A stretch of DNA of 61,475 nucleotides, the filler included. It is 7 parts of 7 records of this genome, joined end to end, with 100 filler letters (N's around TTAATTAATTAA, not from the genome) between each part and the next. Parts side by side here need not be neighbours in the genome. Positions count along the whole stretch, not along the records: positions 6,328 to 16,829 come from SRR31147125_47283; 6 more parts are not named here. The stretch is one strand, 5' to 3'. Both the position numbers and the translations under genes were made by a program. Below, piece after piece: positions 6,228 to 53,332 of the stretch; the stretch's first letter is position 1; each line of letters opens with the position of its first letter. A model generated the notes under the pieces. That model ran no database searches. It saw only the letters and a list, made by a program, of their open reading frames with translations, and was not told the DNA's origin.

Positions 6228-6327
6228 NNNNNNNNNNNNNNNNNNNNNNNNNNNNNNNNNNNNNNNNNNNNTTAATTAATTAANNNNNNNNNNNNNNNNN
6301 NNNNNNNNNNNNNNNNNNNNNNNNNNN
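6228..6327. other. Artificial contig spacer (N44-TTAATTAATTAA-N44)
   Basis: Identical 100-bp spacer with stops in all six frames recurs six times, and composition changes across it. Confidence 0.98.
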
Positions 6328-6847: not shown

Positions 6848-7297
6848 GGTCGGCTCCTCGAATAGTAAGGTTGACGATTAAACCATACAGTGTTGAAACA
6901 ATTTACCAGTTATTTCAACCTATTTTCAACGCATTCACACAAAGGTATGTTTCTGAATATTGCCGACCACAGGCGCTCAGTTCCTGTATACACTCCCCCC
7001 GCACCGTTTGAGAATGTGGTTATTTGGCGGTCGCTCAGCCATCAATCACGGGGTCGATGCAATCCGGCGGCGCAACTTTGCGTGGCAGAACATCAACCGC
7101 CCTTTTATCACACTCCTGCTGATCGCCGGCTTTGTCTATCCGGTATTTATCGCGATTCAGGGACTTCACTGAGTTCGTGATTATTATCTGCACTACCGAT
7201 TTACCTGAAAAAAACGCTACCGGGTTCCCGCGACGGGGAGCCGACGGGTACAGGAGTTCAACAGAACCAACAGGGGATTACTGATTTGAGTACATCA

Positions 7298-8827
7298 ATG
7301 AGAATCGCTATCCAATATACGTTTGCCGTTTTGTCTCTGACCTTCTACGGGGGGCAGGTCTGACCGTACATGGCCTCCCTGTCCCCCGTGTCCCTGGGGA
7401 CAATGATCTCGATCGGTTTTCTGGCGCTGCTGGTTGTCCGGCAGTTGCTGGTAAAACGCATGGTAGACCAGGCGAGCCGGTATGAGCAGCCCAGACGAAT
7501 TTTCTTCCTCGAATTTTTCATCTGCATCTGTGCCGGCCTCACGATCATGGCCTTCCAGAACCTGGTATATCAGTTTCCCCTGACAAGTACCCTGTCCCTG
7601 CTTATCGGCTGCATCATCGCAGGCTTTTTCATCGGGCTGAACTCTTCGCTCATCAGGGAACGGGAGGTTATTGCCAGCGCCGCCAAATCAGGCGAACACG
7701 ATTACCGCCTCGTACACTATTCGCCCATTACCCTTAAGTTCACCCTGATCGCCGCCACCACCTTCGTGTTCGTGTGCCTCGTCCTCATCATGGTATTCTC
7801 GCGGGATGTCGAATGGCTGGCAAATACAGCCCGGGACGCGGACTCGATACTGAACGCCCAGTTGTCGGTCATCTACGAGATTCTGTTCATCATGGGCGTG
7901 TTGATGATTCTGATCTTCAACCTCATCTTCTCCTACTCCCAGAACCTCAAACAGCTGTTCAACAATCAGACGGTGATCCTCGAGAAGGTGCGGCAGGGCG
8001 ATCTGAGAAGCAAAGTTCCAGTCGCGACCCGGGACGAATTCGGGGTGATCGCGGAACATACCAACCACATGATCGACGGTCTCAGACACCGCTTTGAACT
8101 GATGCACTCCCTCGAACTCGCCGAAGAAGTCCAGCAGAATCTGCTGCCGACCCGCAACCCCTCGGTGCAGGGTTACGATATCAGCGGCATATCAATGTAT
8201 TGCGACCAGACCGGCGGAGACTATTTCGATTACTTCAGCCTGCCCGGCGACAAACTCGGCATCACTATCGCGGACGCGTGCGGCCACGGGGTCGGAGCCG
8301 CCATGCTGATGACCACGGTTCGTGCCTTTCTGATCTCGGCAGTGGAGAACTACCAGGAACCCGCGCGCCTGCTGAACGAAATCAACCGCTGGATCAGCAG
8401 GGACTGCGCGGCCAGTGGGAACTTTACAACGATGTTTTTCCTGGAGCTCGATCCCCACACAACGGAGGTGCGCTGGGTGAGGGCCGGACACGAACCGCCG
8501 CTCCACTTCCACCGCAGTTCGGGACAGATCACGAAACTCGAGGGTAATGGCATCGTGCTCGGTATTGACGATTCATACCGTTTTGAGAACCAGACCAGCA
8601 GTATCGAGCAAGGCGACGTCATTCTCCTCGGAACCGACGGCATATTCGAGACAAGAAACCGGCAAAACACGCTGTTCGGGTACGAGAGGGTCCAGGAAAT
8701 CATCACCCTCCATCAGGATCAGGCAACGGCGGTCATCCAGGAACGCATCGTGTCGGAGGTGAAGACCTTCCGCGGTGATATTGACCAGGAGGACGACATA
8801 ACCCTGGTTGTGATCAAGGCCGATTGA
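7298..8827 (+). CDS. Membrane-bound HAMP plus SpoIIE/PP2C (RsbU-like) phosphatase, probable selenoprotein (Sec at codon 22, TGA 7361-7363), 509 aa
   Basis: ATG 7298 gives MRIAIQYTFAVLSLTFYGGQV*PY in frame with ORF 7370-8827. HAMP motif TRDEFGVIAEHTNHMIDGL. PP2C motifs GGDYFD, ADACGHG, AGHEPP, GTDGIFE, QEDDITLVVI. Phosphatase call about 0.95; Sec extension about 0.8. Confidence 0.85.
7380..7402 (+). promoter_or_regulatory. Putative bacterial SECIS element
   Basis: Perfect 7-bp stem TGTCCCC/GGGGACA with loop CGTGTCCCT (G at loop position 2, followed by U). The stem starts 16 nt after the in-frame TGA. Confidence 0.7.
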
Positions 8828-9892: not shown

Positions 9893-9933
9893 CTCTAGGA
9901 GACGCACTCGGGGGATTTTTCATCCTCTCGGTT

Positions 9934-10190
9934 GTGAATATGGCCTTCAACCTTGTGGCCATGTATTACCTTGTGGCCATGTATTTCCTGGACACGATGG
10001 GGCGCCGCAGAATGCTCGCAATCGGCGCCACCGGTGCGATGCTCTGTCTGATCGCCATCAGCACCGGCTACAGTGAAAAAATCACGGAACAATCTGTCGC
10101 CCACCTTGGCGCCCGGGGTCTGATCAACAAACCCATCGTCAAGTCGAAGCTGGCCGAAGTCATCCGCAGGGTCCTGGACGGGGATGACCT
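9934..10190 (+). pseudogene. Chimeric remnant: MFS sugar-porter helix fragment fused to a receiver-domain C-terminus
   Basis: NLVAMYFLDTMGRRRMLAIGATG resembles the sugar-porter D-x-x-GRR loop. ISTGYSEKITEQ..LINKPIVKSKLAEVIRRVLDG resembles the end of a REC domain. End coordinate is approximate. Confidence 0.55.
9950..9985 (+). repeat. 18-bp perfect tandem duplication
   Basis: ACCTTGTGGCCATGTATT twice. Confidence 0.9.
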
Positions 10191-10198
10191 GAAACACC

Positions 10199-10782
<584 letters not shown>

Positions 10783-10819
10783 GCTGCTCTTTTCTGATTC
10801 TCATAGTAATGATCTGTTT

Positions 10820-11722
10820 TCAGAGACAACAAACCTGGTTCCGGCCATTCATTTTTGCCTGATACAATGCACTGTCCGCGGCCTCGACAAGCTGGATTCC
10901 GTTCGTGCCCCTCGCAACCGCCGCAGTCAGGATGCCAATGCTCATACTCACATAGGCAGCCACTTCGGACGCCTCATGGGGGATATTGAGTCGTGTTAAT
11001 TCGCTCTGCATATTTTTCGCAACGCACAGTGCTCCCGCACCATCCGTTTCCGGCAGGATTACCCCGAACTCCTCCCCTCCGTATCGCGCGGTGAAGTCGG
11101 CCGCCCGTTTCGCGTTTTCGGAGATGACTCGAGCCACCCTGCGCAGACAGTCATCCCCGGCGACATGCCCATACAGGTCGTTGTATTTTTTGAAATAATC
11201 GATATCGATCAAAAGCAAGGAAAGGAACGAACCGTTTCTCTCCGAACGCCTGATTTCGCGCTCGAGCGTCTCGTCGAAACAGCGGCGGTTGGGTATTTCG
11301 GTAAGCCCATCGATCGAAGCAAGCCGCTCGAGCAGGTCGGTCTTACGTTTGAGCTGGATATGGGTCTTCACCCGGGCCCTGACGATTACCGGGTTGAACG
11401 GTTTGGTAATGAAGTCCACTGCCCCGAGCTCGAATCCCCTGGCCTCATCGTCGACGTTGTCGAGTGCGGAGATGAAAATAACGGGAATATGGGCGGTCCG
11501 CGAGTTCTCTTTCAGCCGCTTGACAACCTCGTAGCCGCTGATGTCGGGCATCATGATGTCGAGTAGAACCAGGTCCGGCTGTACCGGTCCGCCCGCAGCT
11601 TCCAGTGCCTGCCGGCCCTCTCTGGCGGCCATGATCTTGTAATCGTCGTGCAGATAAGCGGTGAGCAACTTCACATTCAGCTTTTCATCGTCGACAATAA
11701 GTATTCGATTTTCCCGTTCCAC
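10820..11722 (-). CDS. REC-GGDEF diguanylate cyclase
   Basis: REC domain plus DGLTEIPNRR, DIDYFKKYND, RAAD I-site and ARYGGEEF. Confidence 0.92.
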   Translation of the reverse strand: MERENRILIVDDEKLNVKLLTAYLHDDYKIMAAREGRQALEAAGGPVQPDLVLLDIMMPDISGYEVVKRLKENSRTAHIPVIFISALDNVDDEARGFELGAVDFITKPFNPVIVRARVKTHIQLKRKTDLLERLASIDGLTEIPNRRCFDETLEREIRRSERNGSFLSLLLIDIDYFKKYNDLYGHVAGDDCLRRVARVISENAKRAADFTARYGGEEFGVILPETDGAGALCVAKNMQSELTRLNIPHEASEVAAYVSMSIGILTAAVARGTNGIQLVEAADSALYQAKMNGRNQVCCL

Positions 11723-16829: not shown

Positions 16830-16929
16830 NNNNNNNNNNNNNNNNNNNNNNNNNNNNNNNNNNNNNNNNNNNNTTAATTAATTAANNNNNNNNNNNNNNN
16901 NNNNNNNNNNNNNNNNNNNNNNNNNNNNN
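16830..16929. other. Artificial contig spacer
   Basis: N44-TTAATTAATTAA-N44. Confidence 0.98.
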
Positions 16930-23989: not shown

Positions 23990-24089
23990 NNNNNNNNNNN
24001 NNNNNNNNNNNNNNNNNNNNNNNNNNNNNNNNNTTAATTAATTAANNNNNNNNNNNNNNNNNNNNNNNNNNNNNNNNNNNNNNNNNNNN
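23990..24089. other. Artificial contig spacer
   Basis: N44-TTAATTAATTAA-N44. Confidence 0.98.
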
Positions 24090-34974: not shown

Positions 34975-35074
34975 NNNNNNNNNNNNNNNNNNNNNNNNNN
35001 NNNNNNNNNNNNNNNNNNTTAATTAATTAANNNNNNNNNNNNNNNNNNNNNNNNNNNNNNNNNNNNNNNNNNNN
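34975..35074. other. Artificial contig spacer
   Basis: N44-TTAATTAATTAA-N44. Confidence 0.98.
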
Positions 35075-41434: not shown

Positions 41435-41534
41435 NNNNNNNNNNNNNNNNNNNNNNNNNNNNNNNNNNNNNNNNNNNNTTAATTAATTAANNNNNNNNNN
41501 NNNNNNNNNNNNNNNNNNNNNNNNNNNNNNNNNN
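41435..41534. other. Artificial contig spacer
   Basis: N44-TTAATTAATTAA-N44. Confidence 0.98.
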
Positions 41535-53232: not shown

Positions 53233-53332
53233 NNNNNNNNNNNNNNNNNNNNNNNNNNNNNNNNNNNNNNNNNNNNTTAATTAATTAANNNNNNNNNNNN
53301 NNNNNNNNNNNNNNNNNNNNNNNNNNNNNNNN
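53233..53332. other. Artificial contig spacer
   Basis: N44-TTAATTAATTAA-N44. Confidence 0.98.

What the first reader, a model, noticed from the sequence alone, without database searches (positions are those of the whole stretch)
7298..8827. Probable selenocysteine-containing membrane sensor phosphatase (in-frame UGA plus SECIS-like hairpin) hidden by the ORF caller
Seen in sequence: ATG 7298 opens a hydrophobic 21-codon segment (MRIAIQYTFAVLSLTFYGGQV). It is followed by TGA 7361-7363 and CCG TAC, then runs without a frame change into the annotated 485-aa HAMP-SpoIIE ORF. Sixteen nt after the TGA lies a perfect 7-bp stem (TGTCCCC/GGGGACA) with a 9-nt loop that has G at position 2. Established: bacterial SECIS elements sit directly 3' of the Sec UGA with a G near the start of the apical loop, and sulfate-reducing deltaproteobacteria are selenoprotein-rich. 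Inference: the protein is 509 aa with Sec22 at the end of TM1, in a GGQV-U-P motif that I recall as GGQVCP in homologues. That would make it a redox- or metal-sensing membrane input wired through HAMP to a PP2C partner-switching output. Most known bacterial selenoproteins are oxidoreductases, so a Sec sensor in signal transduction would be unusual. I cannot confirm whether this family is already catalogued.
Basis: partly seen in the sequence, partly recalled or inferred. Interest (0 to 1): 0.88.

Follow-up and report, generated by a model that had tools for sequence, protein, structure and literature searches.

The report
Selenocysteine in a membrane sensor phosphatase
The apparent stop codon near the start of this membrane sensor-phosphatase gene is almost certainly read as selenocysteine, at the one cysteine position that the whole sensor family keeps, so databases cut off the protein's first membrane helix and miss a likely selenium-containing signalling receptor.

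Summary
ATG 7298, in-frame TGA 7361-7363, a 7-bp/9-nt-loop hairpin 16 nt downstream and the called 485-aa ORF (7370-8827) are all there.

Reading through the TGA restores the missing first helix of a Pfam MASE10 sensor domain: 95.8 rises to 125.7 bits, and the profile match extends from 20-186 to 2-186.

Of 53 orthologous loci from other genomes, 52 have TGA (never TAA or TAG) at this column in Y-G-G-Q-V-*-P. One has TGT (Cys).

Among 113 family representatives that cover the column, 111 have Cys. It is one of five invariant positions of the domain.

The hairpin is conserved, shows compensatory changes and has frozen synonymous sites. It meets the published bacterial SECIS criteria.

Only 26 of 53 sequences have a start codon where callers begin the ORF, so a split gene is unlikely.

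selA, selB and tRNA-Sec are present in relatives. The window's own genome is not held.

MASE10-cyclase genes also carry the TGA, so selenocysteine belongs to the sensor domain.

The family is absent from a 2026 catalogue of 119 prokaryotic selenoprotein families, and RefSeq truncates it.

No selenium incorporation has been shown. The sensing role (redox or soft metal) is inference.

The parts
7298..8827 (+). Full gene: 509 codons with one in-frame UGA (Sec22), plus terminal TGA 8825-8827. Encodes MASE10-HAMP-PP2C.
   Evidence: tblastn matches query residues 1-509 or 1-507 in related loci.
7298..7360 (+). Start codon and 21 codons for transmembrane helix 1, which the called ORF omits.
   Evidence: The Pfam MASE10 match extends from profile 20-186 to 2-186, gaining 30 bits. 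Mean pairwise difference by codon position is 0.32/0.18/0.58 here, against 0.72/0.72/0.73 in the 60 nt before the ATG. AlphaFold2 predicts a helix at residues 2-21.
7361..7363 (+). In-frame UGA, read as selenocysteine 22 in the motif Y-G-G-Q-V-U-P.
   Evidence: TGA in 53 of 54 aligned sequences and TGT in one. Cys in 111 of 113 family representatives that cover the column. One of five invariant columns of alignment A3.
7370..7372 (+). ATG taken as the start by ORF callers. It encodes an internal Met25.
   Evidence: This codon is ATG in only 24 of 53 orthologues, and ATG, GTG or TTG in 26 of 53.
7380..7402 (+). SECIS-like hairpin: arms 7380-7386 and 7396-7402, apical loop 7387-7395 (CGUGUCCCU).
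   Evidence: Folds at -11.9 kcal/mol. 92.7% of cells are paired across 53 sequences, against 40-61% when the partner is slid. Compensatory GC/AU and UA/CG changes occur at two pairs. Synonymous sites are frozen: TCC 39/39, CCC 51/51, GTG 45/45, GGG 51/51.
7316..7888 (+). MASE10 six-helix membrane sensor domain (residues 7-197).
   Evidence: PF20970 scores 125.7 bits against a cut-off of 27. The AlphaFold2 model has six helices, mean pLDDT 83.8 and pTM 0.80. K+R counts in the loops place the TM1-TM2 loop on the outside.
7982..8086 (+). HAMP-like linker (residues 229-263).
   Evidence: PF00672 scores 22.5 bits, E 1.4e-4, below the 25-bit cut-off. MASE10 is reported to be always followed by HAMP (preprint 10.1101/2021.11.05.467447, passages read).
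8243..8821 (+). PP2C/SpoIIE-type serine phosphatase domain (residues 316-508).
   Evidence: PF07228 scores 160.3 bits against a cut-off of 25, profile 1-191 of 192.

Best explanation
The gene at 7298-8827 encodes one 509-residue inner-membrane signalling protein. It has a six-helix MASE10 sensor domain, a HAMP-like linker and a cytoplasmic PP2C (SpoIIE-type) serine phosphatase.

Codon 22 (UGA 7361-7363) is decoded as selenocysteine by SelB and tRNA-Sec. The hairpin at 7380-7402, inside the coding sequence, directs this. Sec22 sits at the outer (periplasmic) end of helix 1, in the motif Y-x-x-x-V-[U/C]-P. That motif is the most conserved feature of the whole MASE10 family, and most members have cysteine there.

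Shown here:
- the codon, its conservation and its Cys counterparts;
- the conserved, covarying hairpin;
- coding constraint upstream of the UGA;
- Sec machinery in relatives.

Inferred:
- The selenol is the reactive or ligand-contacting group of the sensor. It would be oxidised, persulfidated or bound by a soft metal at the membrane surface.
- That change would alter helix packing and be passed through helix 6 and HAMP to switch the phosphatase.
- The phosphatase would then dephosphorylate a phospho-serine partner protein encoded elsewhere in the genome.
For: (1) The upstream segment is part of the protein.
- Pfam MASE10 rises from 95.8 bits (profile 20-186) to 125.7 bits (profile 2-186) on read-through, and to 120.9 bits with X at the codon.
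- Codon-position divergence is 0.32/0.18/0.58 in the 21 upstream codons, against 0.72/0.72/0.73 in the 60 nt before the ATG.

(2) The codon is conserved. It is TGA in the window and in 52 of 53 loci from other genomes, and never TAA or TAG. The loci share 35-79% identity (best tblastn segment) and include six cultured isolates. One locus has TGT.

(3) Cys homologues exist.
- 111 of 113 representatives that cover the column have Cys.
- Alignment A3 (52 domains, three output types) has only five invariant columns: Y17, V21, U/C22, P23 and L118.

(4) The hairpin is under RNA-level constraint.
- 92.7% of cells are paired, against 40-61% for slid partners, and 0 of 500 shuffles reach this. GC/AU changes occur in 15 sequences and UA/CG in 12.
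- Synonymous sites in the hairpin are frozen. The Pro codon directly after the TGA uses all four codons (21/14/12/6).
- It meets all four bSECIS constraints quoted in PMC13188914, section 5: 9-nt loop with 7-bp stem; G at loop position 2 followed by U; 23 nt from UGA to loop; -11.9 kcal/mol.

(5) It is not a split gene.
- The codon where callers start is ATG, GTG or TTG in only 26 of 53 sequences.
- Database orthologues are all truncated: 37 of 38 hits are 480-489 aa, 36 begin at M-[A/E]-x-L-S-P-V and one begins later.

(6) Sec machinery is present in TGA-bearing genomes.
- selB scores over its cut-off in 11 of 12.
- selA in 9 of 9.
- tRNA-Sec in 5 of 5.

(7) The same TGA occurs in MASE10-cyclase genes (3 loci), which have a different hairpin.

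(8) The U/C state needs at least 5 changes on a 125-row tree. That is the Sec/Cys interchange typical of selenoprotein families (FastTree, weak support).
Against: - No direct evidence of selenium insertion exists: no mass spectrometry, labelling or ribosome data.
- The window's own genome is not held, so its sel genes could not be checked. The window contains no tRNA-Sec and no other candidate selenoprotein gene.
- The 66 nt after the TGA fold no better than shuffles.
- The covariation is entangled with amino-acid changes (Ser/Pro with Thr, Ile/Ala) and with phylogeny.
- selB was not found over its cut-off in MAG G005, which holds L001, one of the two loci tied for the highest identity (79%).
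- Sec machinery is also present in all Cys-type genomes tested: selB in 6 of 6 and selA in 1 of 1. Its presence therefore does not discriminate.
- An ATG two codons after the TGA in 24 of 53 sequences would allow re-initiation in those.
- Two MAG orthologues (L006, L036) carry a further stop or a frameshift.
- The sensing mechanism has no test behind it. There is no conserved gene neighbourhood and no structural relative.
Confidence: 0.88

Rival explanations
1. Split gene. The TGA is a true stop. A 21-residue hydrophobic micropeptide and a separate five-helix, 485-aa sensor phosphatase are made, by translational coupling at ATG 7370. They may reassemble in the membrane.
For: ATG 7370 lies six nt after the TGA. 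24 of 53 orthologues have ATG there. Gene callers and RefSeq annotate it this way.
Against: - 27 of 53 orthologues have no ATG, GTG or TTG at that codon. They have TTA, CTC, CTT, CTG, CTA, ATC or ATA.
- The stop is always TGA and never TAA or TAG.
- One orthologue and 111 of 113 family representatives have a Cys codon and a continuous protein.
- A hairpin with frozen synonymous sites follows the TGA.
Confidence: 0.03
2. Stop-codon read-through without selenium. The UGA-C context and the hairpin promote insertion of Trp, Cys or Arg by a near-cognate tRNA, or a mix of termination and read-through that tunes the level of the full-length protein.
For: The base after the TGA is an invariant C, which I recall as a leaky context. 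Nothing here shows which residue is inserted.
Against: - The column is Cys in nearly all relatives, which is the signature of Sec/Cys pairs.
- The hairpin fits the bSECIS model in spacing, loop size and loop G.
- selA, selB and tRNA-Sec are present in carriers.
Confidence: 0.06
3. Assembly or sequencing error, or a decaying pseudogene in this one bin.
For: The window comes from an assembly with masked stretches. Two related MAG loci have additional defects.
Against: The same TGA is found in 52 other loci, including a complete chromosome and five other isolate genomes. It is also found in contigs of three other public runs. The rest of the frame is intact, with strong domain scores.
Confidence: 0.01

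Closest known systems
MASE10 membrane sensor domain (Pfam PF20970; defined on Vibrio cholerae VC1295 in preprint 10.1101/2021.11.05.467447, passages read)
   Same: Six-helix N-terminal domain followed by HAMP. Outputs are HD-GYP, nucleotide cyclase or PP2C. The preprint notes a conserved Cys in a periplasmic loop. The window's protein scores 125.7 bits against a cut-off of 27.
   Different: The conserved Cys is replaced by a UGA codon here. The preprint's text has no occurrence of 'selenocysteine'. I also saw histidine-kinase outputs among Cys-type representatives, judged by motif only.
Bacterial selenoprotein genes with an in-ORF SECIS read by SelB (prototype E. coli fdhF; consensus model as quoted in PMC13188914, section 5)
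   Same: In-frame UGA, a hairpin immediately downstream with a loop G, Cys-containing homologues, and Sec machinery in carrier genomes.
   Different: The protein is a transmembrane signalling receptor and not an oxidoreductase. There is no UxxC or CxxU redox motif, only a single chalcogen in V-U-P at a membrane surface. The family is not in Table 1 of that review, which lists 119 families or subfamilies.
Sec-peroxiredoxin fused to a PP2C-like phosphatase, predicted from ocean metagenomes (PMC2398784, passage read)
   Same: A selenium-containing input domain on the same polypeptide as a PP2C-type phosphatase output.
   Different: In that case Sec lies in a soluble peroxiredoxin domain with a known peroxidase chemistry. 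Here it lies in a membrane sensor of unknown ligand, and the phosphatase is an ordinary SpoIIE-family domain.
SiaA of Pseudomonas aeruginosa (NCBIfam NF038263), a membrane HAMP-PP2C phosphatase that acts on a partner-switch protein
   Same: Membrane anchor, HAMP, then PP2C. It is the best NCBIfam hit.
   Different: The score is 64 bits against a cut-off of 700, so this is not an orthologue. The sensor domain differs, and no sia-like neighbours are present in the window.

Membership tests
Bacterial selenoprotein gene (Sec-UGA plus bSECIS) | In-frame UGA conserved among orthologues, with coding sequence conserved on both sides | tested here: met
   TGA in the window and in 52 of 53 loci. Coding periodicity upstream of the UGA. 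Pfam gains 30 bits on read-through.
Bacterial selenoprotein gene (Sec-UGA plus bSECIS) | Homologues with Cys at the same column | tested here: met
   L052 has TGT. HD-GYP relatives read YGGQVCP. 111 of 113 representatives that cover the column have Cys.
Bacterial selenoprotein gene (Sec-UGA plus bSECIS) | bSECIS model: 3-9 nt apical loop, 4-16 bp stem, G in the first two loop positions, 16-37 nt from UGA to loop, MFE at or below -7.5 kcal/mol (PMC13188914, Fig. 2 legend) | tested here: met
   9-nt loop CGUGUCCCU, 7-bp stem and 23-nt spacing. MFE -11.9 kcal/mol. The hairpin is conserved with compensatory changes. bSECISearch itself was not run.
Bacterial selenoprotein gene (Sec-UGA plus bSECIS) | selA, selB, selC and selD in the same genome | tested here: inconclusive
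   No genome is held for the window, and no tRNA-Sec lies in the window. In related TGA-bearing genomes: selB in 11 of 12, selA in 9 of 9, tRNA-Sec in 5 of 5. selD was not searched.
Bacterial selenoprotein gene (Sec-UGA plus bSECIS) | Selenium actually incorporated at the UGA | not testable with these tools
   Needs 75Se labelling or mass spectrometry.
MASE10 (PF20970) | Score over Pfam's gathering cut-off across the whole six-helix profile | tested here: met
   125.7 bits against 27, profile 2-186 of 186. Six helices in the AlphaFold2 model.
MASE10 (PF20970) | Followed by a HAMP domain | tested here: inconclusive
   PF00672 scores 22.5 bits, E 1.4e-4, below the 25-bit cut-off. Its position after helix 6 is as expected.
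PP2C / SpoIIE phosphatase (PF07228) | Score over the cut-off across the full domain; metal-binding Asp motifs | tested here: met
   160.3 bits against 25, profile 1-191 of 192. GGDYFD, DACGHG, GTDG and EDD are visible in the translation. That these are the metal-binding motifs is recalled and was not tested.
SiaA (NF038263) | Score over NCBIfam's equivalog cut-off | tested here: not met
   64 bits against 700.

The most novel reading that the evidence does not exclude
MASE10 is a chalcogen-based receptor. Its single invariant Cys/Sec at the outer membrane face is the residue that reacts with the signal, which could be an oxidant, a reactive sulfur species or a soft metal.

Sulfate-reducer lineages have upgraded this residue to selenocysteine in at least two output classes (PP2C phosphatase and nucleotide cyclase). 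That would make this the first selenoprotein family among bacterial transmembrane signal receptors.

A bolder corollary follows from the UGA lying at codon 22. Selenium supply would decide whether the full six-helix receptor is made, or only a helix-1-less form from the nearby ATG. The gene would then also report selenium status.
Probability: 0.4. Interest if true: 0.8.

Novelty: new member of a known kind. Interest (0 to 1): 0.66.

Why it matters
- Annotation. Every database copy I saw is cut short, including RefSeq entries of cultured strains. Each loses a transmembrane helix and the family's most conserved residue. Topology predictions and models built on those entries are therefore wrong.
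- Selenium biology. Almost all of the 119 catalogued prokaryotic selenoprotein families are redox enzymes, metal-handling proteins or transporters. A selenocysteine in the input domain of a signalling receptor, shared by phosphatase and cyclase outputs, extends selenium use into signal perception.
- MASE10 function. No member of this domain family has a known ligand. Selection for Sec over Cys at one position points to that residue as the reactive centre and suggests what to test: oxidants, polysulfide or sulfide, and thiophilic metals.
- Tractability. Cultured carriers exist, so the question can be tested directly.

Tried and rejected
- Own-genome search: no genome is held for the window.
- Gene neighbourhood. 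None of eight window neighbours recurs beside the orthologues within 3-kb flanks, apart from weak response-regulator similarity in 4 loci. Clustering of flanking ORFs gave only lineage-specific neighbours, in at most 16 of 53 loci. No STAS or RsbW-like gene lies next to the gene.
- Structure search with the MASE10 model. Foldseek against PDB gave no match with E <= 0.001 (best 0.056, TM 0.29-0.36). VIA-align wide gave a best Z of 7.4, all generic helical bundles. No fold assignment follows.
- Rfam on 7200-7520: only two chance-level hits (E 6-8).
- NCBIfam: no family-specific or selenoprotein model was hit.
- Expression: no RNA holder is listed for this stretch. The runs laid were contigs only.
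Whether Sec22 lies at a dimer interface stays open.
- Other candidate in-frame TGA genes in the window: 27 mechanical candidates, of which only 7361 looks real.
- Earlier scan notes: none for this family.
- Correlation between Sec machinery and TGA versus Cys forms: none. All Cys-type genomes tested also have selB or selA.
- Literature searches that found no report of this family as a selenoprotein:
  - 'MASE10';
  - 'selenoprotein' + 'SpoIIE';
  - six-term search (top 25 of 744 seen);
  - 'selenocysteine' + 'sensor domain' + 'transmembrane';
  - 'SECIS' + 'PP2C';
  - term look-ups in the main text of PMC13188914, PMC12013277 and PMC13326102.
  Supplementary tables of these papers were not seen and could list it.
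Full report
**1. What is in the sequence**

One search shows ATG at 7298 followed by 21 sense codons (MRIAIQYTFAVLSLTFYGGQV). Then come TGA at 7361-7363, CCG TAC, and ATG at 7370. From there the mechanically listed 485-aa ORF runs to 8827.

Reading TGA as a residue gives one 509-codon frame. That frame itself ends in TGA at 8825-8827, so TGA is an ordinary stop in this organism.

Sixteen nt after the in-frame TGA lies a perfect 7-bp stem (7380-7386 with 7396-7402). Its 9-nt loop is CGUGUCCCU.

**2. The upstream 21 codons belong to the protein**

- The 485-aa ORF matches Pfam MASE10 (PF20970) only from profile position 20 (95.8 bits).
- The read-through protein matches positions 2-186 at 125.7 bits, and 120.9 bits with X at the codon.
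- The rest is a HAMP-like segment (22.5 bits, just under the 25-bit cut-off) and a full SpoIIE/PP2C phosphatase domain (160.3 bits).
- Across 54 aligned sequences, divergence in the 21 codons before the TGA is 0.32/0.18/0.58 by codon position. In the 60 nt before the ATG it is flat at 0.72/0.72/0.73.
- Contigs of three other public runs are 90-95% identical to the window. All 10 of their differences between 7298 and 7411 fall on third codon positions, and none falls on the TGA. A fourth run is identical and may be the source of this DNA, so it is not independent.

**3. The TGA is conserved and has Cys counterparts**

- A protein search found 38 hits among 1104 candidates. Of these, 37 are 480-489 aa. 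Thirty-six begin at M-[A/E]-x-L-S-P-V, one begins later still, and the last hit is a 345-aa fragment. Every database copy is therefore truncated. This includes a RefSeq protein of Desulfopila sp. IMCC35008.
- Scanning one genome per species gave 473 confirmed relatives, of which 80 were kept. Fifty-three of those match the query from its N-terminus.
- In 52 of the 53 the aligned codon is TGA, never TAA or TAG. In one (L052, an uncultured Desulfovibrio) it is TGT.
- By their record titles, the carriers are Desulfocapsaceae, Desulfobulbaceae, Desulfobacteraceae, Desulfovibrionales and one Acidobacteriota MAG. Six are isolates.
- An exhaustive profile search of 1.84 billion representatives found 477 family members at E <= 0.001. 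Of the best 150, 113 cover the column: 111 have Cys, one Asp, one Ser. The other 37 start just after it.
- Of the 95 representatives of at least 400 aa, 21 lack the column, and all 21 are PP2C-type by motif. That these 37 are TGA forms is inferred. I saw their DNA only where they coincide with my loci.
- In an alignment of 52 domains with three output types, the only invariant columns are Y17, V21, U/C22, P23 and L118.
- The preprint that defined MASE10 noted a conserved periplasmic Cys and does not mention selenocysteine (passages read).

**4. The hairpin**

- On 53 TGA-bearing sequences the seven pairs are formed in 92.7% of cells, against 40-61% with the 3' partner slid by 1-3 columns. No shuffle of 500 reaches this.
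- Two pairs show compensatory changes: GC to AU in 15 sequences and UA to CG in 12.
- These changes go with amino-acid changes (Ser/Pro; Thr, Ile/Ala) and with phylogeny, so they are not independent events.
- A cleaner sign comes from synonymous sites. Inside the hairpin, Ser is TCC in 39 of 39, Pro CCC in 51 of 51, Val GTG in 45 of 45 and Gly GGG in 51 of 51. The Pro codon directly after the TGA uses CCG, CCT, CCC and CCA (21/14/12/6). A Gly six codons beyond the hairpin uses all four codons.
- The element meets the four constraints of the bacterial SECIS model as quoted in PMC13188914 (section 5 read). The loop is 9 nt and the stem 7 bp. G stands at loop position 2, followed by U. There are 23 nt between UGA and loop. 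The MFE is -11.9 kcal/mol.
- Against this, the wider 66-nt stretch folds no better than shuffles.
- Two Desulfovibrionales orthologues (L051, L053) have a different hairpin at the same place. The Cys-type L052 has only a 4-bp one. With one Cys-type locus, this is only a hint.

**5. Rivals**

- *Split gene.* This requires a start codon after the TGA. The codon that callers use is ATG in 24 and TTG in 2 of 53 sequences. In the other 27 it is TTA, CTC, CTT, CTG, CTA, ATC or ATA.
- *Error or pseudogene.* This is excluded.
- *Read-through by a near-cognate tRNA.* This cannot be excluded without protein data, but the Cys counterparts and the SECIS-like element favour Sec.

**6. Sec machinery**

- No genome is held for the window. 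The window contains only a tRNA-Pro and no other plausible in-frame-TGA gene.
- In TGA-bearing relatives, selB is over its cut-off in 11 of 12 genomes. The miss is MAG G005.
- selA is present in 9 of 9 and tRNA-Sec in 5 of 5, including G005. selD was not searched.
- Cys-type genomes have the machinery too: selB in 6 of 6 and selA in 1 of 1. Presence is therefore a necessary condition that is met, but it does not discriminate.

**7. Selenocysteine belongs to the sensor domain, not the output**

- In a sample of 121 genomes of the order, 6 have MASE10. Two are PP2C genes with one TGA, and four are HD-GYP genes with Cys.
- In a sample of 401 genomes of the phylum, 11 genomes have 12 matches, and 8 of the 12 have one TGA.
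- Five of those eight are PP2C genes. Three are MASE10-HAMP-class III cyclase genes (YGAQVUPFLEGLG) with a different downstream hairpin.
- The four matches without a stop have Cys. Two are HD-GYP, one is a cyclase (L090), and one loses frame (L091).
- On a FastTree of 125 MASE10 domains, the cyclase-Sec trio is a separate clade (support 99). Sec and Cys forms are sisters within the Desulfovibrionales PP2C group. The U/C state needs at least 5 changes.
- Caveats on this tree: many forks are weakly supported. Representatives that lack the column were left out. I mislabelled L090 and L091 as HD-GYP in that tree, which does not affect the U/C count.

**8. Where the residue sits, and how it may work**

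- AlphaFold2 on the 52-row alignment gives six helices (2-21, 30-56, 64-91, 95-130, 144-177, 181-204), with mean pLDDT 83.8 and pTM 0.80.
- Loops 48-67 and 120-147 hold 6 and 5 Lys+Arg. Loops 87-100 and 168-188 hold 0 and 2.
- By the positive-inside rule (established knowledge), the N-terminus and HAMP are cytoplasmic. Sec22 then lies at the outer end of helix 1, in the short TM1-TM2 loop.
- Other near-invariant residues on that face are P94, D170 and, within the PP2C orthologues, W173.
- There is no second invariant Cys. C105 is invariant only among PP2C orthologues. A CxxU-type redox pair is therefore not the model.
- My best inference is that a single selenol or thiol at the membrane surface is the reactive centre. 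It could be oxidised, persulfidated, metal-bound or cross-linked between subunits. That event would be transmitted through helix 6 and HAMP to the phosphatase. I put this at about 0.4-0.5, and nothing here tests it.
- The substrate of the phosphatase is unknown. Neighbours in the window are a Sel1-repeat protein, a metallophosphoesterase, a response regulator and a response-regulator-GGDEF protein. None of these is conserved beside the orthologues.

**9. Comparison with what is known**

- The decoding mechanism is the ordinary bacterial one. The domain family is known.
- What I did not find described is the combination. Table 1 of a 2026 review lists 119 prokaryotic selenoprotein families or subfamilies. 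It has no MASE10, PP2C, HAMP or cyclase entry (table read in full).
- The main texts of deep-Sep and BSepDB do not contain 'phosphatase', 'sensor' or 'signal transduction'.
- NCBIfam has no matching selenoprotein model.
- Five literature searches found nothing.
- The nearest precedent is a predicted Sec-peroxiredoxin fused to a PP2C-like domain in ocean metagenomes (PMC2398784, passage read).

**10. Verdict**

I file this as a new member of a known kind: a new selenoprotein family, the Sec form of MASE10 sensors.

- Confidence that the UGA encodes selenocysteine: about 0.88.
- Interest: 0.66. A specialist in selenoproteins would find it a solid and unusual addition, being a receptor and not an enzyme. 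For signal transduction, it singles out the residue to test in a sensor family with no known ligand.

Noticed in passing
L092:252-866, L093:245-859, L094:261-875: MASE10-HAMP-class III nucleotide cyclase genes of three Desulfobacterota genomes also carry TGA at the invariant Cys column (YGAQVUPFLEGLG). They have a different downstream hairpin (GGCCU/AGGCC arms, loop starting CGGG). This looks like a second uncatalogued Sec form of the same sensor.
   Followed up: partly
L006:3001-3615 and L036:3001-3615: Two MAG orthologues have a further in-frame stop (L006) or a frameshift (L036) within the first 205 codons. These may be assembly errors or decaying copies. Both were dropped from alignment A3.
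   Followed up: no
L013, L017, L018, L020, L045, L050 (about 100 nt to 2.5 kb upstream of the gene): In six Desulfopila/Desulforhopalus-like loci the gene lies directly downstream of a 274-aa 4Fe-4S protein, an NrfD-like membrane protein and a multihaem cytochrome c. That arrangement looks like a quinone-linked membrane redox complex. It is lineage-specific and not present in the window.
   Followed up: no
window 6228-6327, 16830-16929, 23990-24089, 34975-35074, 41435-41534, 53233-53332: Six pairs of 44-base runs of N, each pair separated by 12 bases. They are regularly built masked stretches, and what they hide is unknown.
   Followed up: no
window 9895-11722 (- strand): Two adjacent response-regulator genes lie convergent with the sensor gene. 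One has a receiver domain plus an unassigned C-terminus, and one has receiver-GGDEF. They are not conserved beside the orthologues.
   Followed up: partly
P0046, P0080, P0086, P0148 (representatives): Some Cys-type MASE10 proteins appear to end in histidine-kinase domains (H-box-like motif seen by eye). The passages I read of the defining preprint do not list this output type.
   Followed up: no
L091:245-859 onward: The second MASE10 copy of genome G164 keeps Cys but loses its reading frame after about residue 225. It may be a frameshifted or decayed paralogue.
   Followed up: no
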